Source: a virus
IMG/VR virus record: IMGVR_UViG_3300045988_175328
Span: 64,001-128,000 of that record
Direction: 5' to 3' (one strand)
DNA: 64,000 nucleotides
Part shown: piece after piece, positions 2,891 through 14,790 of the stretch
Layout: the number at the start of each line of letters is the position of its first letter
How positions within the stretch are numbered: position 1 is the first letter of the stretch
Position numbers and translations under genes: made by a program
Notes under the pieces: model-generated
What the model saw: the letters and a program-made list of their open reading frames with translations, nothing else
The model's database searches: none
What the model was told of the DNA's origin: nothing

Positions 2891-5800
2891 GTGTATTCAT
2901 TTAAAAGCGAAATTTTAAAAGATTTACCAGGCATTTTTGTCGAAGTTAACTCTGCTCGTAAAAAGTTATACGACGACAGCCAATTCGGTAAAACAGATGC
3001 TGTATTGTGTATCGGTACTGCTTTTGACGGCCCTAATGGCTTCCCTGTACCAATCTACGATCCATCTTACGCTGTATATACATATGGCGATACTTATGAC
3101 CGCCGCACAAAACGAGAAGTTGACTTAGTTGCAACTATCTCTGACGCATATAATAATGGTTGTCGTACAATTTATGGCTTCCGTATCGGCGGCAAAGAAG
3201 CATATAAAGATTTTGCTTTCCGTGATGACAAAGCGATGTACCTTCGTGTAAAATCTACTTTCCCATCCAATAAAGCAAAACAAGTATACTTCACATTCGA
3301 TAATACTCCTGGTGAAGAAAAAATTACAATCTACAAACCAGTTTCCAAAGCAAGCTTGTATGAAAAATATAATGCATTGATCGACGAAACAACTGAAGTA
3401 ATCAAAGTTGATATCAACCTTGGTTTCTCTGGTGCTGGTTTTAATTCTAATACACAATTAACTGAAGTGTTACGTTATGTAAATCGTCATGTGTTAAATA
3501 ACGTTCTTGTTCTTTCTATCGTAAATGATGAAGGTCAAGATATCACACTTCGTAACGACTCTTATGATTTAGCCCTTGGGTCTTTATTCCCAGGAACTTA
3601 CTTCATTGGTCGTAGTCATTCTTTAGTTCCAATTCGTACTGAAGTTCGTACTCATATCATTAAAGGTGAAAACGCAATTAAACCTTATGATTCTTATGAT
3701 GGCGTATACTTCACTGCATTACGAATCAATACTGATGTATCTTCTCGTTACCCAATTTATGCAGGTTCCGATAAAGAAATGAACGAAGTATTGACTAAAG
3801 TTGGTATTAAAATGTTGTCTCATAACGACTATCTTGAATCTCCAATGCTTTCTAATTTAGCGTTCGCAGAAGACGAAGTCGATTATGAAGAAACAAACAT
3901 GACTAACTTCGAAAAATATGTTCGTCTTGGTTCTGGTTTTGCTATTACAGCAACAGCACATAAACGTACTAACACTAAAGGAGAAGAATTAGTTCCTCGT
4001 GTTAAAGAAACAGTAGCTAAAGATCCTCGTTATGTTGTTGGTATTAAAGATGGTGCATATAGCTTACTTCAAAATGCTGATATGCCTTATCGTGTACTAG
4101 GCGCTCAAATTGCTGCAGATACAGTAATTGGCGGCCGCTTACCAAAACCTAAAGATTTCTTACGTGCATTTGCTCAAGAAGTTTCTGTATTTAATTCTGT
4201 ACAAAATGGAGCTGTTGTTCCTAATACAGAATTAATTTCTATTACTCCTAAAGTAGATAGCATGGATACAAAAACATCTGCTCGTAAATTTAAATTTACA
4301 TTTAATAAAATTAAAGACGTAGAAAAAATTGTTCCATCCGCTATTTTCTCTAATGAAGTATTCACATATGTTCCAGTTGTAGATAATAAAGAAGCTTTAA
4401 TGCTTGACAAAAAAGTTTACAAAACTGGACAAGTATTCTTCATTAAAGATGAACAAAAAGTTGTAACAGTAACTGCTGAAAATAAACTTGAAGAGTTCGT
4501 CTCCAAAAATCAAAAATTCAAACACTTTGTTGCTGGCGACAAAATTATTGAATCTTTTGTATTAGGTGAAGATGTTCACTTTAAAGAAGTGGCAGATTTA
4601 TCTGGATTACAATATGATACAGACACTACAGGTATTTTAAAAGACGTTGATTCTACTGCAGGTTTATATTATGTAACTCGTGCAGCAGCTGCAACAGGAA
4701 CACCTATCAATGCAAAATATGTATTGATGACTGTAAATGGTGTATTAACTGTTGCGTCCTATGAAGATGGCAAAGTAACTCCTATCGGTAACTATGACAT
4801 CATCATGGATAAAGATACTCGTGATGATAAAGTAATCGCTTACATCGAAAACTTCGATAACGTAGAAAATAAAGTTGCAATCAGTGTTACTGATTATAAC
4901 TATCGTACATTATCTGAATTTGTAAGCGACTTAAAAGAAAATAAAACATTCTCTCGTTTATTTGATATCAAATTAACAGATAATGGCGTCATTGAAAAAG
5001 ATACTTTAATCGAAGATATCTTAGAACCAGTATTGAAAGATACAGAATTAGTATTGGGCGAGCTTCCTGCTCATAAAGTAATTGATTACGATTACTCTTT
5101 ACGTATTCCTTACCGTACTTCTGATAACTTTGCTCGCCAATTGGCACAACATTGTTTGAATACAGAAATGCGTACAGCTCATACTCATGGCCTTATCGGC
5201 GCAGAACGTATCTCTGATTATACATTATCTGGTGTTGCTCAAAAAGTTGAAGCATTAAAAACATTGTCTTTAGGCTTAAACTTAAAACGTGAAAACGGTC
5301 GAGCAGTTATCGATGATGACGGAATGCCAGTAAACATTGGTGGATCCATTTCCATGGTGTTCATGCAAAACAATGTACCAGTATTTAATTCTACATATTC
5401 TTATGTAGGTAATGGTGGTTCTGCATATGCTGGTTTAGTATCTGCATTAGATGTAGAACAATCCCCAACTAACCAAAAATTAAAAGCAACTCCATTGTTT
5501 GATTTAACAACGGCACAATTATCCGACTTAACAGCTCGCGGCATAGTAACAGCTAAAAATACATATACTCGTGGATATGTAATTACTGATGGTTGCACTA
5601 TGGCTGATAGCTCTGATCCTATGTCTCGTTTAAATACAGTTCGTATTATCGATGCTGTAGAACGAGTAATTCGTGAAGTTTGTGAACCATTCATTGGTAA
5701 ACAAAATAAAATTTCCGTACGTAATGCTATTCAAACTGGATTAACTTCTCGTTTGAATGAATTGAAAGGCAAATTATTGTACGATTATACATTCGATATT

Positions 5801-5926
5801 GTTAATGACGTAGAAGTGTTACAATACACTTACATCGATATCAACTATGTAATCATGCCGTACAACGAAATTCGTCAAATCAATAACTACATTCAAGTAC
5901 GTCAACCGGGCGCAATCGCTCATTAA
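2891..5926 (+). CDS. contractile tail sheath protein (large, 1011 aa)
   Basis: GTG start after AAAGGAAATG. The C-terminal ~150 aa (GYVITDGCTMADSSDPMSRLNTVRIIDAVERVIREVCEPFIGKQN ... INYVIMPYNEIRQINNYIQV) has the pattern of sheath C-terminal domains. The gene is followed by a terminator and the tube-like gene, which is the canonical sheath-tube order. Confidence 0.75.
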   Translation: MYSFKSEILKDLPGIFVEVNSARKKLYDDSQFGKTDAVLCIGTAFDGPNGFPVPIYDPSYAVYTYGDTYDRRTKREVDLVATISDAYNNGCRTIYGFRIGGKEAYKDFAFRDDKAMYLRVKSTFPSNKAKQVYFTFDNTPGEEKITIYKPVSKASLYEKYNALIDETTEVIKVDINLGFSGAGFNSNTQLTEVLRYVNRHVLNNVLVLSIVNDEGQDITLRNDSYDLALGSLFPGTYFIGRSHSLVPIRTEVRTHIIKGENAIKPYDSYDGVYFTALRINTDVSSRYPIYAGSDKEMNEVLTKVGIKMLSHNDYLESPMLSNLAFAEDEVDYEETNMTNFEKYVRLGSGFAITATAHKRTNTKGEELVPRVKETVAKDPRYVVGIKDGAYSLLQNADMPYRVLGAQIAADTVIGGRLPKPKDFLRAFAQEVSVFNSVQNGAVVPNTELISITPKVDSMDTKTSARKFKFTFNKIKDVEKIVPSAIFSNEVFTYVPVVDNKEALMLDKKVYKTGQVFFIKDEQKVVTVTAENKLEEFVSKNQKFKHFVAGDKIIESFVLGEDVHFKEVADLSGLQYDTDTTGILKDVDSTAGLYYVTRAAAATGTPINAKYVLMTVNGVLTVASYEDGKVTPIGNYDIIMDKDTRDDKVIAYIENFDNVENKVAISVTDYNYRTLSEFVSDLKENKTFSRLFDIKLTDNGVIEKDTLIEDILEPVLKDTELVLGELPAHKVIDYDYSLRIPYRTSDNFARQLAQHCLNTEMRTAHTHGLIGAERISDYTLSGVAQKVEALKTLSLGLNLKRENGRAVIDDDGMPVNIGGSISMVFMQNNVPVFNSTYSYVGNGGSAYAGLVSALDVEQSPTNQKLKATPLFDLTTAQLSDLTARGIVTAKNTYTRGYVITDGCTMADSSDPMSRLNTVRIIDAVERVIREVCEPFIGKQNKISVRNAIQTGLTSRLNELKGKLLYDYTFDIVNDVEVLQYTYIDINYVIMPYNEIRQINNYIQVRQPGAIAH

Positions 5927-6003: not shown

Positions 6004-6474
6004 ATGGAATTAGGTATCAATTTTAGATATGATAGCAAAAGGCGTGCGGCACTTATCTTAGTTTTTGATCGAGAGAGACTATTGCTTAAAGCAATTAGTG
6101 TTTTAAGAAAAAAACTACAGATTCCTTATCGAGAACTCGGAAAAACTAAAGATGGATTATTTTATGTTAAATATAAAGGAATGCTCGCTGCTTATATATA
6201 CTGGTGGATACATCGTATATTTAAAGCAGAATCTGCTAAAGAACACTATCCTTTATTTAAAGAAATATTCCTTCAAGATTTCGAGGGAGAATTGCCATAC
6301 GAAGAACTTCTTGCTTTAACTAATTCAGTCGAAACAGATGAACAAATAACGATCGGTGTTCCATCTGACTCGACGCTAACATGGTGTAAACGTATCCAGA
6401 GATGGCTACCGTTTAAAACTAGAATAGCATCGAGAACAGGAAAGAAAAAAGAGTATTTCCTGCTTTTAAAATAA
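6004..6474 (+). CDS. free-standing, N-terminally shorter paralog of the intron ORF at 6883 (degenerate LAGLIDADG-like endonuclease or maturase?)
   Basis: 156 aa. It aligns to the 6883-7497 product: AALILVFDRERLLLKAISVLRKKL vs SLLILDLVYHSKDVLESIKKIFKEKL; AAYIYWWIH vs AKIIFWWLYH; LPFKTRIASRTGKKKEYFLL vs LSFKTQPVTHTKGKRKHYQLY. It lacks the first ~35 aa of the paralog. Confidence 0.5.
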   Translation: MELGINFRYDSKRRAALILVFDRERLLLKAISVLRKKLQIPYRELGKTKDGLFYVKYKGMLAAYIYWWIHRIFKAESAKEHYPLFKEIFLQDFEGELPYEELLALTNSVETDEQITIGVPSDSTLTWCKRIQRWLPFKTRIASRTGKKKEYFLLLK

Positions 6475-6528: not shown

Positions 6529-6686
6529 ATGGCATATCAAAATGACACTAGTGTAACAAGTGCATCTCAATACACTCGTTCTTACACTACTTTCTCTGGC
6601 TGTGATATCGTTGCAACTTTCGGATCCGAAGTTGTAGCTGAAGTACAAGGTATTACAGTTTCTATCAACCGTGAGAAAGCTCCGGT
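6529..6686 (+). CDS. tail tube-like protein, exon 1 of 4
   Basis: MAYQNDTSVTSASQYTRSYTTFSGCDIVATFGSEVVAEVQGITVSINREKAPV aligns to the N-terminus of the uninterrupted paralog at 11429 (SKYTRTYNSYSGCDIVAS...HQEKTPV). The frame hits a stop 4 codons past 6686. The exon end CTCCGGT pairs with an internal guide at 6727-6733. Confidence 0.7.
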
Positions 6687-7529
6687 CAACAAACATTTTT
6701 GATATATGCTGAATCAAAACCTATAGGCCGGAGTAAAACTTTGCTAAAATCGGTGAAAGAGCACTAACACCGAGGATAAGAATATGATATAATAATATTG
6801 TGTTCAATGTCCGTAGAGACTTGAGACACTATTCTCTTAATGATGTATCCATTCCCAGCTAGGGAAATAACGGAGGTTTTTAATGAATGAAGTACTTGCT
6901 TGGTATTTAGGACTTAGTTACCAAGAAGATCAGTATCCAAGAAGTGTTGCCAGTGATTTACATAGTTATTTTATTCGCGGATTAGTTGAACAACTTAATC
7001 CATTTTATTATCGTGAAAAACGATCACTACTTATTTTGGATCTCGTATATCATTCAAAAGATGTTTTAGAATCGATAAAGAAAATTTTCAAAGAAAAATT
7101 ATTAATCGATTCTAAAGTTAAAGAGCTCGATAATAAATATATTTTAAATGTTTCTGGAAAGAATGCTAAAATTATTTTCTGGTGGTTATATCATGAAGAT
7201 TTTAGTACAAGTTATTCAGAAGAAATAGTAAATATATTAACAGATAAAGAAATAACTGATTTAAATAATATGAGCGACGACGATTCCTTACTTGAATTAA
7301 TCGGCGCTTATTATTCTGAAGATAATCATATTTCTTTTAATTGTCCTTATTATGAATCATTAGATCTAGCTAAAAAAGTAAGAAATTTACTTTCGTTTAA
7401 AACACAACCAGTGACTCATACAAAAGGAAAAAGAAAACATTATCAGCTTTATATTCCAAAAAACCAATCATTAATACGCAAAGCATCGAATGAGTAATCA
7501 TTCGTAAAGATATAGTCCACTTAATTGGG
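6687..7529 (+). ncRNA. group I intron 1 of the tube gene (ORF-containing)
   Basis: P1: exon CTCCGGT (6680-6686) pairs with GCCGGAG (6727-6733), with a U-G wobble at T6686. P10: TATAG (6722-6726) pairs with TTATA (7530-7534). AAGATATAGTC (7507-7517) matches the group I J8/7-P7 consensus seen in Tetrahymena and phage introns. The last nucleotide, G7529, is a candidate omega-G. Removal keeps the reading frame (GT + T = Val). Confidence 0.65.
6883..7497 (+). CDS. intron-encoded protein, degenerate double-motif LAGLIDADG-like (homing endonuclease or maturase?)
   Basis: 204 aa with a GGAGG RBS. Two LAGLIDADG-like helices: AWYLGLSYQED and LLELIGAYYSEDNHISF. It sits in a peripheral loop of intron 1. 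TGATATAAT (6785-6793) upstream looks like an extended -10. Confidence 0.5.
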   Translation: MNEVLAWYLGLSYQEDQYPRSVASDLHSYFIRGLVEQLNPFYYREKRSLLILDLVYHSKDVLESIKKIFKEKLLIDSKVKELDNKYILNVSGKNAKIIFWWLYHEDFSTSYSEEIVNILTDKEITDLNNMSDDDSLLELIGAYYSEDNHISFNCPYYESLDLAKKVRNLLSFKTQPVTHTKGKRKHYQLYIPKNQSLIRKASNE

Positions 7530-7572
7530 TTATACATTTGGTTCAGCTGAGCCTCGTTCTATCTCGAGAGGT
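7530..7572 (+). CDS. tail tube-like protein, 43-nt micro-exon 2 of 4
   Basis: Encodes (V)YTFGSAEPRSISRG. This fills exactly the gap between exon 1 and exon 3 relative to both paralogs (RAIGNVNAITYVDG in the 11429 ORF; FGYNSYIFDEMALG in the 14787 ORF). It is flanked by a predicted 3' splice site (after G7529) and a 5' splice site (after U7572). Confidence 0.65.
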
Positions 7573-7678
7573 AATAATAACTCTTTTGCTTCTCCTTTGC
7601 AGTAATGCAACGCATAATTAAACTCTGTGATTAAATGTGCTATACATACTTACAACTTAAGTCATGAGTAAGTAGCAC

Positions 7679-8070
7679 GTATAGTCCACATATCTGGTAA
7701 CAGGTATGTGCCAAGTGGTAACACTCGGAGATTCACTGAATTGCTGGAAAGTCCTAAAGCTTGAATAACTACAACATAATATCGTACAAGTACGATATAA
7801 GCGTGAATGTTGCGAAAGCAGAAAAAATATTCAAGATGGTATATGGTTAAATCCTAAGTACTGTAGCAATGGACAATCAGCAGCCAAGCCCGTAAGGGAA
7901 GGTTCAACGACTATCCTGAGAAGGAGTAGGGCTCAAGCGAGTGGGTGAAAATCCCTTAAATCGAAGTAGTGAAGGTCCTTTAGAAAAGGATTAAGATATA
8001 GTCTGTGCTTTATCGAAAGATAAAGGTGCGCGCAGTGGCGCCGGCTAAGAGTAGCGATCTTAGTTGAACG
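7679..8070 (+). ncRNA. group I (IA2, phage-type) ribozyme core A
   Basis: GTATAGTCCA guide-like element, then two GTAA-tetraloop hairpins (7689-7712, 7713-7730). P4 TTGCTGG (7741-7747) pairs with CAGCA. CAGCAGCCAAGCCC resembles Tetrahymena P4'-P6. P7 GACTA (7909-7913) pairs with TAGTC inside AAGATATAGTC (7993-8003). P9 hairpin CTTTATCgaaaGATAAAG. Long identical blocks are shared with the introns at 10552 and 38331. Confidence 0.75.
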
Positions 8071-8104
8071 AACAACTCTCATATAAACCCTACGGTTTTA
8101 TATA

Positions 8105-8133
8105 TTGAAATTAACCTCCTAAAGTACTATAAT
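8105..8133 (+). promoter_or_regulatory. sigma-A/sigma-70 type promoter for tnpB, inside the intron
   Basis: TTGAAA (8105-8110), 17-nt spacer, TATAAT (8128-8133). AAAGGAGGTG RBS at 8151-8160 and GTG start at 8165. Confidence 0.6.
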
Positions 8134-8164
8134 AATAGTATATAGTTACGAAAGGAGGTGCCTC

Positions 8165-9253
8165 GTGAATAAAAGTTTTAAAGTAGAAATTTATCCAGAT
8201 CAAGATCAGGAAATTTTAATTGAGAAAACATTTGGCTGCGTAAGATATACTTACAATTTTATGTTAAATTTAAAACAACTTCTGTATAAAGAATTTGGAA
8301 TATCAATAACTTTAAATAGGATATCCAAAGTTCTTACGATGCTAAAAAAACTTAAGCCATGGCTTGCAGAAGTTGATAAATGTGCATTGCAATATGTTCT
8401 CAAAGATCTTTTTTTTGGATATGAAAAATTCTTTAATGGCGGAGGATTTCCTGAATTTAAAACTAAACGAGGGAAGAATTCTTATCGTACAAATAGTCGT
8501 TTACATTTAGATCAAGATAAAAAGATGATTAAGATCCCTAAAGTCGGCTGGATTAAGTTTAGAGATAAAAGTAAATTTATTGGTCTTAAAAAGATTTACA
8601 ATATCACTATTTCTAAAAGTGCTAGTGGAAAATATTTTGCCAGTATTTCAGCCGAAGTCGAAATCGAAGCTTTGCCTAAAACCAAAGTAAACTGCGGTAT
8701 CGACTTAGGATTAAAAGATTTTTGTATCTTGAACGATGGAACAGTATTTGAGAATCCTAAATTTTTGGCAAGTAAAGAAAAACGACTCAAAAGGTTACAA
8801 AAGTCTTTAAATCGAAAGAAACTAGGATCTAAGAATTATTTTAAAGTTAAAGCTAAAATAGTTAGACTTCATGAATATATAGCAAATTGTCGAAAAGATT
8901 ATCTGCACAAAATATCTATATTCTTAGTTAGAACTTATGATATTATTTGTGTTGAAACTCTAAAAGTTAAGAATATGCTTAAGAATCATAAGTTAGCTAA
9001 AGCTATTATTGACGTTAGTTGGTATGAATTTTGTCGACAGTTAGAATATAAATGTTTATGGTATGGAAAGAAATTTGTACAGATTGGGACTTATTTCGCA
9101 TCATCACAAACATGCTCTAATTGTGGCTTCAAGAATATAGAAGTTAAGAATCTTGATGTTCGAGAATGGAATTGTCCAGAATGTGGAGTTCATCACGATC
9201 GAGATATTAACGCAGCTATAAATATTCTCAACGAAGGCTTAAAATTAGCTTAA
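8165..9253 (+). CDS. tnpB: TnpB (IS200/IS605-family OrfB RNA-guided endonuclease); no tnpA present
   Basis: 362 aa. Ruv[12 protein letters not shown], Ruv[14 protein letters not shown], zinc ribbon CSNCGF...CPECG, Ruv[15 protein letters not shown]. All three catalytic acidic residues appear intact. Confidence 0.9.
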
Positions 9254-9384
9254 TTTCAATATATAGAACCGCAGGGCATGCGGGGATAGCCTACTGTCTT
9301 AGTATAAGACGTATAGTGAATTTATATTTACTATACGCAACTATTGGGTAGGAACCTCGTCACTTTAAGTGGTGAGAGGATGTC
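9254..9384 (+). ncRNA. candidate TnpB omega RNA scaffold (may start inside the tnpB 3' end); boundaries uncertain
   Basis: Densely structured RNA directly after tnpB. Hairpins: CCGCA/TGCGG (9269-9283), GTCTTA/TAAGAC (9296-9310) and GTATAGTGAA/TTACTATAC (9311-9336). The last two are enclosed by CCTAC (9290-9294) pairing with GTAGG (9348-9352). Omega RNAs are known to lie at this position in IS605-type elements. Confidence 0.4.
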
Positions 9385-9552
9385 AGATGCTGGAAACCCC
9401 TTAGAGCCTTTGGTACCAAAGTGTGACAATCTAAAGGATTGGGCAATCAGCAGGCAGCTTTATCTATTAGATATTGCGCCTCAACGACTATCCGTAAGGA
9501 GTACACCATAATAGCCGGTGGAAGCGCAGAGCTCCCTAGAATAATATAGGTA

Positions 9553-9581
9553 TTGCTATATTCTCCTTTTTGTATTATAAT
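9553..9581 (+). promoter_or_regulatory. sigma-A/sigma-70 type promoter for the LAGLIDADG gene, inside the intron
   Basis: TTGCTA (9553-9558), 17-nt spacer, TATAAT (9576-9581). AAGGAGG RBS at 9591-9597 and ATG at 9605. Confidence 0.6.
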
Positions 9582-9604
9582 AAATATATAAGGAGGTCTT
9601 AAAT

Positions 9605-10264
9605 ATGGCGCAATACAATTATAATTTTGATATTTTAGAAAAAGAATCACCTGAAAAATATTATTTTCTTGGCTTTATCGCAGCAGATGGAGCATTAACA
9701 AATGGCGGAATTGTTTTTGAACTAAACAAGAGAGATGGATATATGGTAAAGAAATTAAATGATTACATATGTCCTGAAAAAGAAGTTAAGTTTAGAGAAG
9801 AAACAAATTCTTGTCGAGCAACATTTTATAATCTTGAAATGACAAAGAAACTAAAAAAATATTTTTCAATGACAAGCAATAGAAAAACCGAAGAGATTAG
9901 ATTCCCAGAAGTACCAGATGAATATCTTCGAGATTTTATTCGTGGGATCATCGATGGTGATGGAACTATCGATACGACTAAAGGATACAAAGGAAATAAA
10001 ATTTATATTGGTGCTCGACTTCGAATCTTAGGTAATGAAATTTTTCTAAAAGAATTAAATGAGAAAACAAAATTATTATATCCACATAATACAAATGCTG
10101 TAAACAGAAAAGGTAAGGAAAATATACATATTATAACTTATAACTTTAAAACAGCGCGCGAATTATTGAAAATAATATATTATGACGGATGCCTATGTTT
10201 AAAACGAAAATTCGATCGTTCTAGGGATGAAGATATAGTCTCTACATTAGTGAGAGCTAAATGA
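9605..10264 (+). CDS. LAGLIDADG homing endonuclease (double-motif)
   Basis: 219 aa. Motif 1 YYFLGFIAADGAL, motif 2 FIRGIIDGDGTID. The 3' end overlaps the ribozyme J8/7-P7 segment, as is typical of intron-encoded endonucleases. Confidence 0.85.
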   Translation: MAQYNYNFDILEKESPEKYYFLGFIAADGALTNGGIVFELNKRDGYMVKKLNDYICPEKEVKFREETNSCRATFYNLEMTKKLKKYFSMTSNRKTEEIRFPEVPDEYLRDFIRGIIDGDGTIDTTKGYKGNKIYIGARLRILGNEIFLKELNEKTKLLYPHNTNAVNRKGKENIHIITYNFKTARELLKIIYYDGCLCLKRKFDRSRDEDIVSTLVRAK

Positions 10265-10278
10265 TAATCATTCTCAAA

Positions 10279-10551
10279 AAAAGAGGGATCGCCGGCACTA
10301 TTGTATTCACACTATTTGATCGTGATGCATTAGTCGACGCATTGGCTATTCGCGCAGCAAAAGCTGCGTATTTCCAACGTATTGGTGGTGATATCAATTA
10401 CCAACCATACACAATTACTGAATGGGATACTAAATTGACAGATATGGTAGTTAATACTTTATCTTCCAGTAACAGTTCCCAAATTGCATCCAGTAATCCA
10501 TTTAAACTTACTCAAAAAGTAGCTGTTCAATCTACTCCTAAATACTCCGAT
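10279..10551 (+). CDS. tail tube-like protein, exon 3 of 4
   Basis: KRGIAGTIVFTLFDRDALVDAL...STPKYSD aligns to PRTIAGTIVFTVLDKHVIYEIF...HYLMD of the 11429 paralog. The 5' boundary comes from guide complementarity and the paralog alignment. The 3' boundary is U10551, wobble-paired with G10565. Confidence 0.65.
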
Positions 10552-10935
10552 TATTCTTAATATAGTCCGTATGTTTAGTAATAAGCATATGTTAAACATA
10601 AATGTTTAAGGTCTCATCGAATTGCTGAAAACCCGTAAAGCTTAAAACGCTACAGCATAATTTTGAAAAACAAATAAGTGCGATAGTAACGAAAGTAAAA
10701 AAAGTTTTAAGATAGCGTATGGTTAAATCCTAAGCGCCACAACAATTGGCAATCAGCAGCGAAGCTCCAAATAGGAGAACGTTCAACGACTAGAGCAAGA
10801 TGCTCGTACACTCAAGCGAGTGGAAGTGGTGAGGGCCCATTTGATGGGTCAAGATATAGTCTATGCCTTAGTGAAAATTAAGGGAGCAACAATTTGTTGC
10901 CAAATAATAGTAGCGATATTATTTGAATATAACAG
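10552..10935 (+). ncRNA. group I (IA2) intron 3 of the tube gene, ORF-less
   Basis: P1: GAT|TAT (10549-10554) pairs with ATAGTC (10562-10567), with U10551-G10565. P2 is TATGTTTAgtaaTAAGCATA and P2.1 is TTAAACAtaaaTGTTTAA. Conserved blocks GAATTGCTG, GGTTAAATCCTAAG, GGCAATCAGCAGCGAAGC and GTTCAACGACTAG are present, plus AAGATATAGTC (10851-10861). It ends ...AACAG at G10935. Removal joins D|E in frame. Confidence 0.8.
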
Positions 10936-11145
10936 GAAATTCCGCCATTTGACATTACTTTATCTTTTGCAAATGAGTATGGTCAATCGGCAGTAATGGT
11001 TATCTACGGCGTAGAGATCTTAAATGAAGCTTCTAGTTTCTCTGTAGATTCTACTACGACTGATAAAGCATGTACTTACATTGCTCGTTCTGTAGATTAC
11101 TTGCAACCAGTAGAAAACAAATACTTATTGAATAACAATTACTAA
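10936..11145 (+). CDS. tail tube-like protein, exon 4 of 4 (includes the stop)
   Basis: EIPPFDITLSFANEYGQSAVMVIYGVEILNEASSFSVD... aligns to ELPNFDITLSFANEYGHNSSISIYNCTIMDEGQVMSVND of the paralog. An in-frame TAA lies 2 codons upstream of 10936. TAA stop at 11143-11145. Confidence 0.75.
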   Translation, partial: EIPPFDITLSFANEYGQSAVMVIYGVEILNEASSFSVDSTTTDKACTYIARSVDYLQPVENKYLLNNNY

Positions 11146-11152
11146 TAAGTTA

Positions 11153-11183
11153 GGGACGAGGATTACCTCGTCCCATTTTTTTT
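11153..11183 (+). terminator. rho-independent terminator after the tube gene
   Basis: GGGACGAGG (11153-11161), loop ATTA, CCTCGTCCC (11166-11174), then eight T residues. Confidence 0.85.
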
Positions 11184-11195
11184 GAGGTTAATAGC

Positions 11196-11432
11196 TTGGA
11201 AAATACGAATCAAGTCTTTCTGTATCTAAACAAAGTTTTAGATGATTATATTAAAGAAGCTGTTCAACGAAGAGTTTCTTTAGACGAAGCTAATCTTGAG
11301 ATGAAAGAAGTTTGTCTTAAAGAATTAGAGCAAAGATCAATAGAGCTTAAACCACATATAAAAACACTTGTTGAAAATAGAGTTAAACAATATCTTAAAG
11401 TCTACCACTTAAAAGTGAGGTATTTAAAATGA
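11196..11432 (+). CDS. small hypothetical protein
   Basis: 78-aa ORF with a TTG start after GAGG. Its stop overlaps the next ATG (ATGA). Confidence 0.5.
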   Translation: MENTNQVFLYLNKVLDDYIKEAVQRRVSLDEANLEMKEVCLKELEQRSIELKPHIKTLVENRVKQYLKVYHLKVRYLK

Positions 11433-13132
11433 CACAAGAAAAAGAGATTGTTCAAACTTCTAAATACACAAGAACATACAATTCATATAGTGGATGCGAT
11501 ATTGTAGCTTCTATTAATATTTCAATACCAGGGCAAGAACCTATTCATCATGTGTTCGGCAGCATTCAAACACTTTCTTATAGCATCCATCAGGAGAAAA
11601 CTCCAGTTAGAGCAATCGGGAATGTAAATGCAATTACGTATGTAGATGGGCCCAGAACAATTGCTGGCACTATTGTATTTACAGTTTTAGATAAGCATGT
11701 AATATATGAAATTTTTGAAGAATTAACAAAGAAGGGGCAATATATCAATGAACATTATTTAATGGACGAGCTCCCTAATTTTGACATTACTTTATCTTTT
11801 GCAAATGAATATGGCCATAATAGTTCTATCAGTATATATAATTGCACTATTATGGATGAAGGACAAGTCATGTCTGTTAATGATATTTTGACAGAAAATA
11901 CATATCATTATTATGCGACTGATATTGACTACATGACTGAATCTGAAAGCTATTGGACAATTAATCGTCAAAAGATTATTGAATCAAATCCTTGGCTTAG
12001 TCCTCAGAACTTTAAACCGCAACCACAGGTTCCGGCAAAAGAAATAGACGATTGCCCATTAGAAAAAATTAGTCGATATAAGTATCGAACATATGCTGAA
12101 TATGTTACTGCTTTAAATAAGGCATACGAAAAACATCGAGATGAATTAGTTGAAGCGCAGAAGACTGATCGTATTGTAGCTTGTCGTCATAAGTATCATA
12201 CTCTTGTCGAAGATGCTAAAAAATATTATAAAATTGGCGATATGCCATATGGATTAAATAGAATTCCTAAACGAAGACCAGCTGTTGTCAATAAAGATTA
12301 CGATAAATTCAGAACACAAATTCGTAAAACTTCAAGAGCTGTTCCTGATTATGACAACTGTAGAGTTAGAAAACATACTGGTCCAATCCAGGCGCCAGAT
12401 TTTAATATAAGAACATCTCGTACTTATAATAGAATTATAATTCCAGATTTAAATATGCCGCGATTAAGATATAATTCATATCGTGACTATCCAGAATTTG
12501 AGAGTCGAGAACGATATGAATCATCTAGAAGCTATCCTGAATTTAGATCTAGGAATTATAAAAAATTCTCGACACGAGGATACCCTATATATAAAACTAA
12601 TTATGCTAAGCATTATAGAGAAGATCCTCCAGAATTTAATTCTAGACTTCGACCTCAAAAATATAAAGTTAATGTCCCGGAATACGAGACTCATAAAAGA
12701 AGAAAAGTCGATATTATGGTCCCAGAATTTGAATCAAGAAAGGCTCCTGAAAGAAAAAGAGAAGGATATCCTGAGTATACAACTCAATATCCAGAGCATA
12801 GAAAAATTGTTCCTCCAGAATTTCCAAGAGTTAGGAATTTAAGAGATAGAGTCCATGATTATGTTCCTGATGAAATTATCGATAGAAACCATGACCATGA
12901 CAATAAACCAATTTTTAAAAATAGAAAACGAGAAAAAATTATCGAGAAAGAAAAAGAAATACATAAAAAGCCAGAAATTAAAGAAAAAAAACGTTTAGAT
13001 TTTGTTCTTAAGAAAAAAGATTCTAGTATGGTGATTGAAGAAGTCAAGAAAGAAGAAACTAAGCCTAAAGACAAATTTAGAATTCGTTCTGTTATCGAAA
13101 AGAACGCAACACCAGATCGAGGTGATAGCTAA
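11429..13132 (+). CDS. tube-fold paralog with a long basic repeat-rich C-terminal extension
   Basis: 567 aa. The N-terminal ~170 aa is homologous to the split tube gene. The rest is Arg/Lys/Pro/Glu-rich with P-E-F/Y-x-S/T-R repeats and a Lys-rich tail. Confidence 0.7.
   Translation: MTQEKEIVQTSKYTRTYNSYSGCDIVASINISIPGQEPIHHVFGSIQTLSYSIHQEKTPVRAIGNVNAITYVDGPRTIAGTIVFTVLDKHVIYEIFEELTKKGQYINEHYLMDELPNFDITLSFANEYGHNSSISIYNCTIMDEGQVMSVNDILTENTYHYYATDIDYMTESESYWTINRQKIIESNPWLSPQNFKPQPQVPAKEIDDCPLEKISRYKYRTYAEYVTALNKAYEKHRDELVEAQKTDRIVACRHKYHTLVEDAKKYYKIGDMPYGLNRIPKRRPAVVNKDYDKFRTQIRKTSRAVPDYDNCRVRKHTGPIQAPDFNIRTSRTYNRIIIPDLNMPRLRYNSYRDYPEFESRERYESSRSYPEFRSRNYKKFSTRGYPIYKTNYAKHYREDPPEFNSRLRPQKYKVNVPEYETHKRRKVDIMVPEFESRKAPERKREGYPEYTTQYPEHRKIVPPEFPRVRNLRDRVHDYVPDEIIDRNHDHDNKPIFKNRKREKIIEKEKEIHKKPEIKEKKRLDFVLKKKDSSMVIEEVKKEETKPKDKFRIRSVIEKNATPDRGDS
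12485..12835 (+). repeat. coding tandem-like repeats (YPEFESR-type, about 7 copies)
   Basis: YPEFESR, YPEFRSR, PPEFNSR, VPEYETH, VPEFESR, YPEYTTQ, PPEFPRV. At DNA level the string CCAGAATTT / CCTGAATTT recurs. Confidence 0.7.
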
Positions 13133-14790
13133 TGGCCATTACGTATGTTGCACAGAAAGAGAATTCTATTCATTTATATTGTGAAGATTTCTTTAATGGA
13201 TATAATACATTAACATATACAGATGGAAAAGAATCTAAAGAAATTACACTTACTTCTCCGGATGTTTTACTCGAGAATTTAACTGCTAATTTATATAAAG
13301 TTAATCTCGGCAATTCTGAAAAATATATCGAAGTCTATTCAGAATCTTTAATTAATGTTCTCGATTTTCTTTTTAATAACATAAAACCTACTGGTATAAA
13401 GAAAGACGATATTCTTAATACTATTGACTCGTATGATCTTTCTTTGGTAGAAGCTTTATATTATCTTTTACGCCAGAAATATTCTAAAGATATTTTAAAA
13501 TTATTGTTAGCGGCGATTAGCTTATTTAACTCTAATAACTTCTATAATAATCTAGATTTAAATACATCAGTTAGAATTAAATCTGATCATAATAATAAGA
13601 TAATGAATGTTCTTATTAATGGAGAGTCTGGAGACAGATTGCACATATCCAAGTTTGTACCAGAAGGATATCAATATATCGAAGCAAAAGATTTAGATGA
13701 TCTCGGGATTTTAAATCTTTCTTTTTTAAAGTCTGGAGAACTGCATCAATTAAAATTAGAACGTGAAGATAATATCACAAATTATTTTTATGTTTACGCA
13801 ATGACACATTCCCAAATTAAAGATATTTGGCCTGACTTAAAGAAAATTACAGATCTTATTAATTCCAGATTTAATGAAGAAAAGTATTTACCTTTGGTGT
13901 ATCAAAACTTTAGCGATGAAGATAAAAAAGCAATTTTAATGGCTCGGTCTGTATCTAAAGATTTATATATATATGAATGTCCTATCTTAGAACAGAACGA
14001 AGATTATTTCGTCGCTTACTTCGACAAAACATCGTTCATTAAACCAATGAATCCGTTGTATCTTTGCATTACAGATATTGAAGGATTAGCGGCTAATGAG
14101 ATTCTTGTAAAAGAACCTGTCACTAATTTCTTAATGGAAATTCCTTTAGCAGGAAAGACCATCTATGAAGGATACTATTTCTTCTATTTAATGGATGATC
14201 ATGATCGTATTGTAAGTAAGATATCTATCTTTAATAAAGATAATGAAATAGAAGCTAATTACAATGAGGCAACCATTAAAGAATTTGTTTATGATCTTGT
14301 TTCTTATCTTAAAAAGATTTATGAAGAAAAAGATGTCGATATGTATTCTCCATTATTCTTTAATGAAGTATCGAACCCATTAGCGAATAGTACAAACTAT
14401 TTTAATTTAATTGTTGAAAAATTAGTGTTAACATATAAAGCCGAAGATTTCTTTGATTTAATCTTTGATCTATATCAATTTAAATATATGAATCAGGGAT
14501 ATAAGAAAGACTTTCATTATTTAATTAAAGATAATAAGGCTAAAAGAATTATTGCGCCGCCATTAAAAGAAGGAAACTTAATTTTAAAATCAGTTAAATA
14601 TAGTCAAACAGGATATAATATCGAATATAAAGAGATATCAGATTCTGCTAATTATGTTACATATTCGGATGCTGACTATACGATAGTCTCTATCTTTGAA
14701 AAGGATTCGGCAGCATGTTTAGGATTTGTTGTTGTTAAGAAGTATGGTCATGACTATTATTTCCAAAACTGGAATGTGAGTTTCGAATGA
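13132..14790 (+). CDS. hypothetical tail-module protein
   Basis: 552-aa ORF, with ATG overlapping the upstream stop (TAATG). No motif recognised. Confidence 0.6.
   Translation: MAITYVAQKENSIHLYCEDFFNGYNTLTYTDGKESKEITLTSPDVLLENLTANLYKVNLGNSEKYIEVYSESLINVLDFLFNNIKPTGIKKDDILNTIDSYDLSLVEALYYLLRQKYSKDILKLLLAAISLFNSNNFYNNLDLNTSVRIKSDHNNKIMNVLINGESGDRLHISKFVPEGYQYIEAKDLDDLGILNLSFLKSGELHQLKLEREDNITNYFYVYAMTHSQIKDIWPDLKKITDLINSRFNEEKYLPLVYQNFSDEDKKAILMARSVSKDLYIYECPILEQNEDYFVAYFDKTSFIKPMNPLYLCITDIEGLAANEILVKEPVTNFLMEIPLAGKTIYEGYYFFYLMDDHDRIVSKISIFNKDNEIEANYNEATIKEFVYDLVSYLKKIYEEKDVDMYSPLFFNEVSNPLANSTNYFNLIVEKLVLTYKAEDFFDLIFDLYQFKYMNQGYKKDFHYLIKDNKAKRIIAPPLKEGNLILKSVKYSQTGYNIEYKEISDSANYVTYSDADYTIVSIFEKDSAACLGFVVVKKYGHDYYFQNWNVSFE

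What the first reader, a model, noticed from the sequence alone, without database searches (positions are those of the whole stretch)
6529..11145. Tail-tube gene split into four exons, including a 43-nt micro-exon
Seen in sequence: four + strand segments carry the tube protein.
- 6529-6686: ...INREKAPV
- 7530-7572: YTFGSAEPRSISRG
- 10279-10551: KRGIAGTIVF...PKYSD
- 10936-11145: EIPPFDITLSFANEYG...
They total 681 nt (227 codons). The joined product aligns without gaps to two uninterrupted paralogs in the same window (the N-terminus of the 11429 ORF and the 14787 ORF). Each gap carries group I hallmarks: the J8/7-P7 string AAGATATAGTC, P4/P6 blocks resembling Tetrahymena, GNRA hairpins, and internal guide sequences complementary to the flanking exons.
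Inference: the major tube protein can only be made after three or more splicing events. Virion assembly would therefore depend on ribozyme activity.
Basis: partly seen in the sequence, partly recalled or inferred. Interest (0 to 1): 0.8.

Follow-up and report, generated by a model that had tools for sequence, protein, structure and literature searches.

The report
Tail-tube gene split by four ribozymes
The major tail-tube gene of this jumbo phage really is cut into four exons, including a 43-base one, by self-splicing group I introns, and the middle intron is itself interrupted by a transposon-intron hybrid (an IStron carrying the RNA-guided nuclease TnpB), so four nested splicing events are needed to make the virus's tail.

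Summary
The four exons (6529-6686, 7530-7572, 10279-10551, 10936-11145) are real. Joined, they give a 227-aa protein colinear with uninterrupted tail-tube orthologs and with intron-less alleles in about 90%-identical phages (dN/dS 0.05-0.08).

The three gaps hold four group I ribozymes, not three.
- **Gap 1** is a group I intron that Rfam misses. Its core is supported by covariation, including a P3 helix that spans its ORF.
- **Gap 3** is a clear Rfam hit.
- **Gap 2** is a twintron. Relatives carry the same intron without window 7632-9386. That 1755-nt insert has a complete group I core, an intact TnpB gene, an inverted repeat around the ORF and conserved ends. It starts after GTGAT and ends in TCAG. 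More than 20 copies with the same ends sit at unrelated sites in related phages. It is a group A (IS200/IS605-type) IStron in J3/4 of the host intron, so it most likely has to splice out first.

The split gene has a precedent: Twort orf142, a tail-tube gene with three introns. I found no precedent for an IStron inside another intron's catalytic core.

One anomaly remains. The outer middle intron ends in A, not the canonical G, as do about half of the related introns. No RNA evidence exists.

The parts
6004..6474 (+). Free-standing ORF (156 aa) between the sheath and tube genes. It is a homolog of the intron-1 ORF and a candidate free-standing homing-endonuclease-like gene.
   Evidence: BLASTP E 2e-10 to ORF 6883-7497. 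Absent from the intron-less relative L004, where sheath and tube are 55 nt apart. No Pfam or PHROG hit.
6529..6686 (+). Exon 1 of the major tail-tube gene (M1 to the first two bases of the V53 codon).
   Evidence: It ends in U6686, which is wobble-paired to G6727 in P1.
6687..7529 (+). Intron 1, a group I intron of 843 nt. Helices: P1 6680-6686/6727-6733; P10 6722-6726/7530-7534; P3 6739-6744/7478-7483; P4 6750-6755/6768-6773; P6 6774-6777/6809-6812; P7 G6816 plus 6818-6821 / 7514-7518; P8 7487-7504. The terminal nucleotide is G7529. The ORF 6883-7497 lies between P7.2 and P3'.
   Evidence: No Rfam hit. The hand-built structure, tested on 7 homologs, is 98.9% paired against 35-49% in slid controls. 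It has 7 pairs with compensatory changes, including the long-range P3. It is homologous to the ~1050-nt site-1 intron of L013-L018, L023, L031, L033 and L044.
6883..7497 (+). Intron-1 ORF (204 aa) with its own Shine-Dalgarno sequence. Family unknown, with degenerate LAGLIDADG-like motifs seen by eye.
   Evidence: No Pfam, PHROG or PDB hit. The AlphaFold model is unusable, pLDDT 42.9.
7530..7572 (+). Exon 2, the 43-nt micro-exon (third base of the V53 codon plus YTFGSAEPRSISRG).
   Evidence: 100% amino-acid identity to the same micro-exon in more than 20 related phages that carry introns at both sites. Colinear with intron-less alleles.
7573..7631 (+). Outer intron 2, 5' segment. P10 guide 7581-7587, P1 guide 7588-7594, P2 GNRA hairpin 7597-7610, P3 5' strand 7623-7629, first two bases of J3/4 at 7630-7631.
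   Evidence: 84-92% identical to the start of the site-2 intron of relatives. Helix assignment follows the Rfam alignment of the ORF-less homolog L032.
7632..9386 (+). IStron (1755 nt) inserted in J3/4 of outer intron 2. P1 is GAU|UA 7629-7633 paired with UAGUC 7682-7686. Left-end hairpin 7637-7678. Ribozyme core to P9 at 8025. Terminal G9386.
   Evidence: Absent from all 21 related site-2 introns; the empty site reads CTCTGTGAT|ATGCTGG. More than 20 copies elsewhere share the left end TARRTGTGCTAT after NGAT and the right end GAGAGGATGTCAG. Rfam 82.6 bits at 7684-8025.
8088..8117 (+). Left arm of the inverted repeat that encloses the tnpB module. The right arm is 9247-9276.
   Evidence: 30 nt, 90% complementary. 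Similarity to ribozyme-less IS relatives begins exactly here.
8165..9253 (+). tnpB (362 aa, GTG start, strong Shine-Dalgarno sequence).
   Evidence: Pfam HTH_OrfB_IS605, OrfB_IS605 and Cas12f1-like_TNB. E 4e-97 to ISDra2 TnpB structures 8BF8/8EXA. The conserved RuvC-type motifs GIDLG, VETL and HDRD are present in the printed alignment, which is to the top hit 9yyg.
9254..9386 (+). IStron right end, the presumed omega-RNA scaffold. It ends in TCAG. The guide would read into 9387 onwards (ATGCTGGAAACCCCTT).
   Evidence: Conserved right-end block in all family copies. The omega-RNA role is inferred from IS605 and IStron biology (PMC10690162) and was not modelled here.
9387..10278 (+). Outer intron 2, 3' segment. 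Last base of J3/4 at 9387, P4 from 9388, P7 9486-9490, P3' 9525-9531, P8 9533-9536/10224-10227 with the endonuclease ORF in its loop, P7' 10236-10240, P9. The last nucleotide is A10278.
   Evidence: Sub-threshold Rfam pieces at 9388-9490 (26.2 bits) and 10137-10262 (32.5 bits). Continuous homology to the site-2 introns of relatives. The ORF-less homolog in L032 passes Rfam gathering at 66.7 bits.
9605..10264 (+). LAGLIDADG-type homing endonuclease ORF (219 aa) in the P8 loop of outer intron 2.
   Evidence: PHROG 4645 endonuclease, E 4.7e-31. Pfam LAGLIDADG_3 at 20.2 bits, below the 22.5 cut-off. An intact 220-aa homolog is in L019. Absent from the ~250-nt intron forms.
10279..10551 (+). Exon 3 (K68-D158).
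   Evidence: Its first 7 nt pair with the P10 guide 7581-7587.
10552..10935 (+). Intron 3, a group I intron of 384 nt with no ORF. P1 is GAU|UAU 10549-10554 paired with AUAGUC 10562-10567. P7 10788-10792, P7' 10857-10861. Terminal G10935.
   Evidence: Rfam 73.9 bits. The core is 66-75% identical to IStron ribozyme cores, and its post-P9 tail aligns to the IStron's. No P10. This site is unoccupied in all 80 relatives kept.
10936..11145 (+). Exon 4 (E159-Y227 plus the stop codon).
11153..11184 (+). Intrinsic-terminator-like hairpin with a T-run just after the tube stop codon.
   Evidence: 9-bp stem with 7 G-C pairs, followed by ATTTTTTTTG.

Best explanation
The window comes from a jumbo phage related to Bacillus phage 0305phi8-36. 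Its major tail-tube gene, the equivalent of gp140, is interrupted at three codon positions by mobile group I introns.

**The four elements**
- Intron 1 (843 nt) and outer intron 2 (951 nt without its insert) are homing-type introns. Each carries an endonuclease-like ORF and a long guide sequence that pairs with both flanking exons (P1 plus P10).
- Outer intron 2 has itself been invaded. A 1755-nt group A (IS200/IS605-type) IStron sits in J3/4, between the P3 and P4 strands of its catalytic core.
- That IStron has a group I ribozyme at its 5' end, then an inverted-repeat-bracketed tnpB gene, then a conserved right end that finishes in TCAG.
- Intron 3 (384 nt) is a ribozyme of the same lineage as the IStron's, but without the IS part.

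**Inferred pathway at the RNA level**
1. The 4.6-kb pre-mRNA is transcribed from 6529 to the terminator at 11153.
2. Introns 1 and 3 self-splice independently.
3. The IStron splices out. Its 5' splice site follows GAU (7631) and its terminal G is 9386. This restores CUCUGUGAU-AUGCUGG, which is J3/4 of the outer intron.
4. Only then can the outer intron fold and join exon 2 to exon 3.
5. The 684-nt mRNA encodes the 227-aa tube protein.

**Inferred behaviour at the DNA level**
- The LAGLIDADG enzyme homes the outer intron into intron-less tube alleles.
- TnpB, with a guide read from 9387 onwards and the adjacent motif GTGAT, would cut IStron-less copies of that intron in co-infecting phages. This would drive retention and spread of the IStron.

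**Shown versus inferred**
- Shown: the anatomy, the insertion boundaries, the homology, the selection on the exons and the ribozyme cores.
- Inferred: actual splicing, its order, and the activity of TnpB and the endonucleases.
For: **The exons form a functional gene**
- The junctions are colinear with uninterrupted orthologs and with intron-less alleles L004-L009.
- dN/dS is 0.05-0.08 at dS of about 1-1.5.
- Synteny is sheath, tube, tube paralog, as in 0305phi8-36, WH1 and KLEB27-3.
- The window holds no other intact copy.

**Four ribozymes**
- Two elements pass Rfam gathering.
- The outer intron 2 core gives sub-threshold pieces in the window and a full hit of 66.7 bits in the uninterrupted homolog L032.
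- The intron 1 structure has compensatory changes in P3, P6, P6a, P7.2 and P8.
- All four 5' splice sites have the U.G wobble pair.
- The P1+P10 guides of 12 and 14 bp are matched by only 1 and 3 of 5000 shuffles.

**Nesting**
- The site-2 introns of 21 relatives equal window 7573-7631 plus 9387-10278, with the empty site CTCTGTGAT|ATGCTGG.
- The insertion point is inside J3/4 according to the Rfam alignment.

**IStron identity**
- TnpB domains are present.
- The ORF matches ISDra2 TnpB at E 4e-97, and the conserved RuvC-type motifs GIDLG, VETL and HDRD are present.
- An inverted repeat encloses the ORF.
- Left and right ends and the NGAT target are conserved across more than 20 copies at unrelated sites.
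- The target and the TCAG end match group A IStrons (PMC4227781; PMC10690162).
- Five of five copies with both ends defined interrupt stop-free frames of 190-213 codons in the sense orientation. That implies the copies are spliced.

**Population data**
- Relatives carry 0, 1, 2 or 3 elements in this gene, including a different IStron at aa 105/106.
Against: - There is no RNA or protein evidence of any kind.
- Outer intron 2 ends in A10278, not the near-universal terminal G. The junction is fixed by protein colinearity and by P10, and no alternative G-terminated junction keeps the reading frame.
- Intron 1 is not recognised by Rfam.
- The nested junction was not found in IMG/VR or JGI metagenome contigs. 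It may be a recent insertion that selection has not yet tested.
- The IStron has no tnpA, so transposition would need a transposase supplied in trans.
- The omega-RNA was not modelled.
- P1 of the IStron and of intron 3 includes only 3 exon base pairs.
Confidence: 0.82

Rival explanations
1. This particular genome carries a crippled tube gene. The IStron insertion in the core of intron 2, or the loss of the terminal G, blocks ligation of exon 2 to exon 3. The sequence would then be a defective or helper-dependent phage variant, or an assembly of a minority haplotype.
For: - The terminal nucleotide is A10278.
- The nested junction is unique among the collections scanned.
- The site-3 intron is also unique to this window.
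Against: - All exons and all three intron ORFs are intact, and the exons show dN/dS 0.05-0.08.
- The IStron ribozyme is the best-scoring core, at 82.6 bits.
- Terminal A occurs in 14 of 21 related site-2 introns and in two other intron families, in many independent metagenomes. This argues that it is tolerated.
- A natural self-splicing intron without the terminal G is on record, Coxiella Cbu.L1917 (paper title seen).
- IStron copies interrupt coding frames elsewhere in these phages.
Confidence: 0.1
2. The outer intron splices without prior removal of the IStron. The IStron's own fold (P1 at its 5' end, the inverted repeat and P9 region at its 3' end) brings its two ends together. J3/4 is then effectively continuous and the 1755 nt behave like a peripheral loop.
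For: - The IStron's P1 and the 30-nt inverted repeat could bring its termini close together.
- Group I introns tolerate kilobase ORF insertions in peripheral loops, as with the endonuclease ORF in P8 here.
Against: - The insertion lies in J3/4, a core junction between P3 and P4, not in a terminal loop.
- The IStron's P1 uses the outer intron's own GUGAU, which is the end of the P3 strand plus J3/4, as its 5' exon. The two folds therefore compete.
Confidence: 0.06
3. Gap 2 is two tandem introns separated by an unnoticed extra micro-exon, or the exon fragments are translated as separate polypeptides.
For: Two ribozyme cores lie in gap 2.
Against: - The protein is gapless across SRG|KRG against all orthologs and intron-less alleles.
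- Relatives show the two flanking pieces of gap 2 as one continuous intron.
- A 14-codon exon has no start codon or ribosome-binding site.
- The sequence 10264-10278 is not conserved in frame among relatives.
Confidence: 0.02

Closest known systems
Staphylococcus phage Twort orf142 (tail-tube gene with three self-splicing group I introns and exon skipping; Landthaler & Shub 1999, as cited in PMC11878797)
   Same: A myovirus tail-tube gene split into four exons by three group I introns of the phage IA2 type. Expression of a major virion protein depends on ribozymes.
   Different: Here one intron is itself interrupted by an IStron, giving four ribozymes. Two introns carry endonuclease-like ORFs. 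The tube protein family and the phage lineage are unrelated. The exon sizes of Twort could not be checked because the paper is not held.
Group A IStrons (CdISt1 of Clostridioides difficile and relatives; Tourasse et al. 2014, PMC4227781; IS605-type IStrons in PMC10690162)
   Same: An IA2 group I ribozyme at the 5' end, an IS200/IS605 TnpB ORF enclosed by an inverted-repeat stem, insertion just after a TTGAT-like pentanucleotide (here GTGAT), a 3' end of TCAG, no target duplication, and many copies at unrelated sites, mostly inside genes in the sense orientation.
   Different: No tnpA (TnpB only). The family lives in phage genomes of human-associated metagenomes. This copy sits inside the catalytic core of another group I intron and not in an exon, so its '5' and 3' exons' are intron RNA. 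I found no report of this in the papers searched.
Coxiella burnetii 23S rRNA introns Cbu.L1917 and Cbu.L1951 (Raghavan et al. 2007; title seen)
   Same: Two group I introns flank a very short exon (34 bp there, 43 nt here), and one intron lacks the canonical terminal G.
   Different: An rRNA gene in a bacterium, not a phage protein-coding gene, and no nesting. I could not read the paper, so the details rest on its title and my memory.
Organellar twintrons and the Didymium twin-ribozyme intron (introns within introns; reviews PMC8393795 and PMC3679873 listed)
   Same: One self-splicing element is inserted within another. The outer one is expected to need removal of the inner one.
   Different: Those are eukaryotic organellar or nuclear rDNA elements. 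The inner element here is a DNA transposon-ribozyme chimera with an RNA-guided nuclease. It interrupts a core junction and not an intron ORF or a peripheral loop.
Phage T4 td, nrdB and sunY introns, and Bastillevirinae or SPO1-type introns (PMC11878797, PMC3984707)
   Same: IA2-type phage introns with P7.1/P7.2, intron-encoded endonucleases with their own expression signals, and presence/absence polymorphism among related phages.
   Different: Those mostly interrupt nucleotide-metabolism, polymerase and terminase genes. Here a structural gene carries up to three or four elements.

Membership tests
Group I intron (Rfam RF00028) | Match to the covariance model above the gathering score | tested here: met
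   IStron core 82.6 bits and intron 3 73.9 bits. Outer intron 2 gives only 26.2 and 32.5-bit pieces in the window, but its uninterrupted homolog L032 scores 66.7 bits. Intron 1 gives no hit at E <= 1.
Group I intron | Conserved core topology: the P3-P8 / P4-P6 domains with the P3/P7 pseudoknot | tested here: met
   Rfam alignments for three cores. For intron 1, the hand-built structure is 98.9% paired on 7 homologs, with 7 compensatory pairs including long-range P3, against 35-49% in slid controls. P7 itself is invariant, so it has no covariation support.
Group I intron | [quoted passage not shown] | tested here: met
   U6686.G6727, U7572.G7588, U7631.G7684 and U10551.G10565, read from the sequence. 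P1 is invariant in the intron-1 homologs.
Group I intron | Terminal guanosine (omega G) at the 3' splice site | tested here: not met
   Met for intron 1 (G7529), the IStron (G9386) and intron 3 (G10935). Not met for outer intron 2, which ends in A10278. Fourteen of 21 related site-2 introns also end in A. Apart from the terminal base, the 79 nt upstream of exon 3, including P7', show no change in the six sequences compared. The P7 5' strand was compared only between the window and L032.
Group I intron | Self-splicing with exogenous guanosine | not testable with these tools
   Requires in vitro transcription and splicing, or cDNA from infected cells.
IStron, group A (IS200/IS605 type) | Group I ribozyme fused 5' of an IS module that encodes TnpB (ORF B) | tested here: met
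   Core at 7684-8025, followed by tnpB at 8165-9253 with OrfB_IS605 and TNB domains and E 4e-97 to ISDra2 TnpB.
IStron, group A (IS200/IS605 type) | Insertion 3' of a TTGAT-like pentanucleotide, a 3' end of TCAG, and no target duplication | tested here: met
   The filled site reads CTGTGAT|TAAATG...GATGTCAG|ATGCTGG and the empty site reads CTGTGAT|ATGCTGG. Family copies follow ATGAT, TTGAT, TCGAT, GTGAT or CTGAT, and all end in TCAG. The criteria are from PMC4227781.
IStron, group A (IS200/IS605 type) | Inverted-repeat stem enclosing the ORF region | tested here: met
   Arms 8088-8117 and 9247-9276, 30 nt, 90% complementary.
IStron, group A (IS200/IS605 type) | TnpA (Y1/HUH transposase, ORF A) | tested here: not met
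   There is no ORF between the ribozyme (ending 8025) and tnpB (8165), and the same layout holds in the related copies. TnpB-only IStrons are listed in Tourasse's table ('ORF B only'), so this does not exclude membership. It does make the element non-autonomous for transposition.
IStron, group A (IS200/IS605 type) | Multiple copies at unrelated loci with conserved ends (evidence of mobility) | tested here: met
   About 20 ribozyme-bearing copies at 67-78% identity in related phage contigs. Alignments start at window 7627-7629 and stop at 9386-9387, with unrelated flanks.
IStron, group A (IS200/IS605 type) | Omega-RNA scaffold at the right end with its guide in the 3' flank | not tested
   Only the conserved right-end block was seen. 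No structure model was built.
Twintron (intron within intron) | The inner element interrupts a sequence that the outer intron's catalytic fold requires | tested here: met
   The insertion lies between the 2nd and 3rd nucleotide of J3/4, directly after the P3 5' strand and before P4.
Twintron (intron within intron) | Sequential splicing, inner element before outer | not testable with these tools
   Needs analysis of RNA intermediates.
LAGLIDADG homing endonuclease (ORF 9605-10264) | Match to LAGLIDADG profiles and presence of the two motifs | tested here: inconclusive
   Pfam LAGLIDADG_3 scores 20.2 bits, below the 22.5 cut-off. PHROG 4645 'endonuclease' gives E 4.7e-31. The motifs LGFIAADGAL and IRGIIDGDGT are visible in the translation.
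Major tail-tube protein of 0305phi8-36-like phages (gp140) | Orthology and synteny with the tube protein identified by mass spectrometry | tested here: met
   40-50% identity over about 90% of the length to WH1, Edson, KLEB27-3 and MTATph1. Over 61% of the length (two pieces) to 0305phi8-36 gp140, which is annotated as a virion protein, tail tube. The gene sits directly after the sheath gene. Pfam Phage_tube_2 scores only 17.9 bits, below its cut-off.

The most novel reading that the evidence does not exclude
Production of the phage's major tail-tube protein is gated by a transposon. The IStron sits in the catalytic core of a homing intron, so the tube mRNA forms only after the IStron RNA chooses splicing over acting as a TnpB guide RNA. 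TnpB and omega-RNA folding are known to repress IStron splicing. TnpB levels would therefore set the timing or yield of virion assembly. Meanwhile TnpB's guide, which reads into the host intron's P4, lets the IStron home into IStron-less copies of that intron during co-infection. That makes three stacked layers of selfish elements: endonuclease intron, IStron, and RNA-guided nuclease. In addition, this intron lineage would splice efficiently with a terminal A in place of the canonical G.
Probability: 0.2. Interest if true: 0.85.

Novelty: new variant of a known kind. Interest (0 to 1): 0.62.

Why it matters
**A natural test system.** Closely related phages carry the same tail-tube gene with 0, 1, 2 or 3 elements. 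The same intron occurs bare (about 250 nt), with an endonuclease gene (about 930 nt), and with an endonuclease gene plus an IStron (2706 nt). This series allows direct tests of how group I introns, homing endonucleases and TnpB transposons stack up and spread in viruses.

**Coupling of splicing and guide RNA.** The nested IStron ties an essential virion protein to the recently described conflict between IStron splicing and TnpB guide-RNA function.

**IStron distribution.** IStrons were thought to be largely confined to Firmicutes and Fusobacteria genomes and a few Clostridium phages. This family extends them to a clade of jumbo phages, where they are abundant.

**The terminal-G rule.** A terminal A in about half of three different intron families questions how strict the terminal-G requirement is. 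It points to easy mutational experiments.

**Annotation.** Gene callers will miss or fragment this major structural gene. A 43-nt exon and four ribozymes explain why.

Tried and rejected
- **Rfam on gap 1.** Nothing at permissive thresholds in the window. Only an 11.5-bit fragment in L032, which carries a different site-1 intron, the 325-nt type. I built the structure by hand and tested it by covariation instead.
- **Early helix guesses.** My first guess for P3' of the outer intron (GACGGAU near 10190), and my first guess that the endonuclease ORF lay in P7.2, were wrong. The Rfam alignment of L032 shows P3' at 9525-9531 and the ORF in the P8 loop.
- **IStron P1.** My first guess (guide GUCAU) was replaced by the homology-based UAGUC. 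What Rfam calls 'P1' at 7688-7709 is really P2, because the true P1 encloses the left-end hairpin.
- **Alternative 3' splice sites for outer intron 2.** I tried G10263, shifted junctions, and a 5' splice site after GG as in group B IStrons. All break the frame or the conserved SRGKRG, or are not conserved in relatives.
- **Is intron 3 an ORF-less IStron?** Its core and post-P9 tail are of IStron lineage and it follows CCGAT. It lacks the family's left-end and right-end blocks, so I do not call it an IStron.
- **Structure and PDB search for the intron-1 ORF.** The AlphaFold model has pLDDT 42.9, too poor for a fold search. phmmer against PDB found nothing. Pfam at E <= 10 found nothing.
- **Exact-pattern scans.** No hits for the nested junction or the site-3 junction in IMG/VR or JGI metagenome contigs. 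The source contig is not in those collections.
- **Bacterial genomes.** The closest TnpB is only 48% identical or less, so there is no host clue.
- **Rfam on 20 TnpB loci at once.** Only 4 hits, probably lost to the speed filters. I used motif positions instead.
- **Papers not held.** The Twort (PMC22036) and Coxiella (PMC2045182) papers could not be read.

Full report
**1. The observation**

The four + strand segments 6529-6686, 7530-7572, 10279-10551 and 10936-11145 join to 684 nt and translate without a stop into a 227-aa protein.

A tblastn search of the phage collection finds the protein as a single uninterrupted gene in Bacillus phages vB_BceM_WH1, Edson and vB_BauM_KLEB27-3 and in Moorella phage MTATph1. 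It is found in two pieces in 0305phi8-36.

In those genomes the gene lies directly after the tail-sheath gene and before a paralog. In 0305phi8-36 it is gp140, annotated 'identified as virion protein by mass spectrometry; tail tube'. The window has the same order:
- sheath, 2891-5926
- the split gene
- the paralog, 11429-13132
- a gp142-like gene, 14787-15446

The multiple alignment is colinear across all three junctions: PV|YT, SRG|KRG and YSD|EIPPFD.

The alignment to the 11429 ORF has 27% gaps (29% identity, E 2e-25), and the 14787 ORF matches only weakly.

**2. Natural intron-plus and intron-minus alleles**

A scan of IMG/VR gave 118 related loci, of which 80 were kept. Mapping the exons onto them shows these allele types among phages with about 90% identical tube proteins:
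- no intron: L004-L009
- an intron only after codon 53: 323-nt or ~1050-nt forms
- an intron only after codon 67
- introns at both sites, with exactly the same 43-nt micro-exon at 100% amino-acid identity
- in L054 and L055, a further element at codon 105/106

None of the 80 has an intron at the window's third site.

The intron-less alleles fix the junctions to the nucleotide. They carry different synonymous codons at site 2: CGTGGT|AAACGC, against AGAGGT|AAAAGA in the intron-bearing alleles. The latter are the codons that pair with the intron's guide sequence.

Between the window's joined exons and the intron-less alleles, dS is about 1-1.5 and dN/dS is 0.05-0.08. The split gene is therefore under strong purifying selection and is not a decaying pseudogene. 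The window holds no second intact copy.

**3. The intervening sequences are group I introns, four of them**

Rfam RF00028 passes its gathering score at 7684-8025 (82.6 bits) and at 10542-10883 (73.9 bits). A permissive scan adds two partial cores in gap 2: P4-P6/J6-7 at 9388-9490, and P8/J8-7/P7'/P9 at 10137-10262.

The J8/7-P7' string AAGATATAGTC occurs four times on the + strand in the locus, at 7507, 7993, 10230 and 10851. The window holds six copies in all against 0.18 expected.

Gap 1 gives no Rfam hit. By eye it has a full core: P1, P3, P4, P6, P6a, P7 with a bulged A, P7.1, P7.2, P8 and a terminal G. I tested that structure on seven homologous site-1 introns with the ORF removed. It is 98.9% paired against 35-49% when the partners are slid. 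Seven pairs change on both sides, including two in P3, whose strands lie about 740 nt apart across the ORF. The sequences are few and related, so this is support and not proof.

The guide sequences of introns 1 and 2 pair contiguously with the last 7 nt of the upstream exon and the first 5 or 7 nt of the downstream exon (12 and 14 bp). Only 1 and 3 of 5000 shuffles reach this. All four 5' splice sites follow a U that is wobble-paired to G.

**4. Gap 2 is a twintron: an IStron inside a homing intron**

BLAST of gap 2 against the site-2 introns of relatives shows that they correspond to window 7573-7631 plus 9387-10278. The window has an extra 1755 nt.

The empty site reads ...AAACTCTGTGAT|ATGCTGGAAACC... 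in every relative examined. The window reads ...CTCTGTGAT|TAAATGTGCTAT ... GAGAGGATGTCAG|ATGCTGG.... There is no target duplication.

The ~250-nt ORF-less form of this intron (L032) passes Rfam at 66.7 bits. Its alignment places the insertion point inside J3/4, just after the P3 5' strand and before P4. The LAGLIDADG-type ORF (9605-10264) lies in the P8 loop and is absent from the 250-nt forms.

The insert contains:
- a complete ribozyme
- a 30-nt inverted repeat, 8088-8117 with 9247-9276, that brackets the ORF
- a 362-aa TnpB with HTH_OrfB_IS605, OrfB_IS605 and TNB domains
- similarity of E 4e-97 to ISDra2 TnpB, with the conserved RuvC-type motifs GIDLG, VETL and HDRD present in the printed alignment

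Related TnpB genes at 67-78% identity occur in many copies in the related phages. Alignments of those copies to the window start at 7627-7629 and stop at 9386-9387. About 20 copies carry group I core motifs upstream of tnpB. Every copy whose left end was mapped starts TA(A/G)(A/G)TGTGCTAT after an NGAT target, and every copy whose right end was mapped ends ...GAGAGGATGTCAG before unrelated flanks.

These are the published hallmarks of group A IStrons: a TTGAT-like 5' target, a TCAG 3' end, an inverted-repeat stem around the ORF and an IA2 ribozyme (PMC4227781; PMC10690162).

Five of five copies with both ends defined interrupt a stop-free frame of 190-213 codons in the sense orientation. This is indirect evidence that the family splices.

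There is no tnpA. About a dozen relatives lack the ribozyme, and their similarity to the window starts exactly at the left arm of the inverted repeat.

**5. Intron 3**

Its core and its post-P9 tail are 66-75% identical to IStron ribozymes. It follows CCGAT and ends in CAG. Its P1 (GAU|UAU with AUAGUC) is the same as the IStron's (GAU|UA with UAGUC), and it has no P10.

It lacks the family's left-end hairpin, the inverted repeat, tnpB and the right-end block. I therefore read it as a ribozyme of the IStron lineage without the IS module. It could be ancestral or derived.

**6. How it most likely works**

Shown:
- the anatomy and the insertion boundaries
- the ribozyme cores and the intact ORFs
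- the selection on the exons

Inferred:
- One pre-mRNA runs from 6529 to the terminator-like hairpin at 11153.
- Introns 1 and 3 splice independently.
- The IStron must splice first to restore J3/4 (CUCUGUGAU-AUGCUGG), which is identical to the empty-site sequence.
- The outer intron then ligates exon 2 to exon 3.

IStron transcripts are known to be torn between splicing and serving as the TnpB guide RNA (PMC10690162). TnpB could therefore influence tube mRNA yield here. That step is speculative.

At the DNA level, the guide would read ATGCTGGAAACCCCTT next to the motif GTGAT. That is exactly the sequence present in all IStron-less site-2 introns, so TnpB could drive IStron retention or homing during co-infection.

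**7. The main anomaly**

The outer intron ends ...CATTCTCAAA|AAAAGAGGG. Its last nucleotide is A10278, and there is no G within 15 nt. Protein colinearity and the contiguous P1+P10 guide both fix this junction. Every alternative breaks the frame or the conserved sequence.

Terminal nucleotide in relatives:

| Intron family | Terminal A | Terminal G |
|---|---|---|
| Site-2 intron | 14 | 7 |
| 325-nt site-1 intron | about 10 | 9 |
| ~1050-nt site-1 intron | 3 | 7 |

Apart from the terminal base, the 79 nt upstream of exon 3, including P7', show no change in the six sequences compared. The P7 5' strand was compared only between the window and L032.

The only precedent I know is Coxiella Cbu.L1917, for which I have only the paper's title. 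Either this lineage tolerates a terminal A, or many of these genomes carry an impaired intron. I cannot decide between these in silico, and it is the main reason my confidence is not higher.

**8. Comparison with what is known, and novelty**

A tail-tube gene with three group I introns is already known: Twort orf142, identified as a tail tube in PMC11878797. Very short exons between group I introns are also known, from Coxiella. IStrons are known in Clostridium phages.

In the literature I searched, I found no IStron, or any group I element, nested in the catalytic core of another group I intron in a phage or bacterium. The exact nested junction is also absent from IMG/VR and JGI contigs.

I rate it a new variant of a known kind, with moderately high interest.

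Noticed in passing
window 38349-38999: A third Rfam group I core (38349-38720, 72.4 bits) lies in the 720-nt gap between the stop of ORF 33285-38333 and the start of ORF 39054-44747. Its post-P9 tail resembles the IStron's. It has a long inverted repeat (about 38767-38791 with 38965-38999) and ends ...GCTCAG. It looks like an ORF-less IStron derivative in an intergenic position.
   Followed up: partly
window 10278; L004-L083 site-1 and site-2 introns: The terminal intron nucleotide is polymorphic, A or G, in three different intron families of this phage population. About half of the copies have A. The P7' (3') strand is the same in both forms.
   Followed up: partly
window 6004-6474: A free-standing ORF between the sheath and tube genes is homologous to the intron-1 ORF (E 2e-10). 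It is absent from the intron-less relative L004. It may be a free-standing homing-endonuclease-like gene next to the intron hot spot.
   Followed up: partly
L054 6422-8000 (also L055): Relatives carry a further 1.58-kb element in the tube gene at codon 105/106. It has a group I-like core and a different 362-aa TnpB, so it is a second kind of IStron, inserted directly in exon 3.
   Followed up: partly
L086, L089-L091, L093, L101-L105, L108, L111: About a dozen copies of the same TnpB family lack the ribozyme. Their similarity to the window's IStron begins exactly at the left arm of the inverted repeat (window 8088-8096). This points to a modular fusion of an intron with an IS element.
   Followed up: partly
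window 6764-6793, 8105-8133, 9553-9581: The best + strand sigma-70-like matches in the locus each sit 25-90 nt upstream of one of the three intron ORFs. The total number of promoter-like matches is not above shuffles, so this is only suggestive of separate expression.
   Followed up: no
L032 7686-7703 and 7983-8000; window 10262-10278: The 325-nt site-1 intron and the site-2 intron share a near-identical 3' tail, GATAATCATT(C/T)TCA, a partial palindrome. Its meaning is unknown.
   Followed up: no
L085 around 2469/4254: One IStron copy interrupts an ORF whose upstream part reads ...LAGLFEVKGF... (LAGLIDADG-like). This may be another case of an IStron landing inside a mobile-element gene.
   Followed up: no
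window 34810-34820 (- strand): A single exact copy of AAGATATAGTC lies on the minus strand inside ORF 33285-38333. It has no Rfam hit and may be chance.
   Followed up: no
PHROG 9206; NC_009760 ORF140: The tube protein family is labelled 'major head protein' in PHROGs and in the RefSeq record, while GenBank EF583821 calls the same gene tail tube. This is probably a propagated mis-annotation.
   Followed up: no
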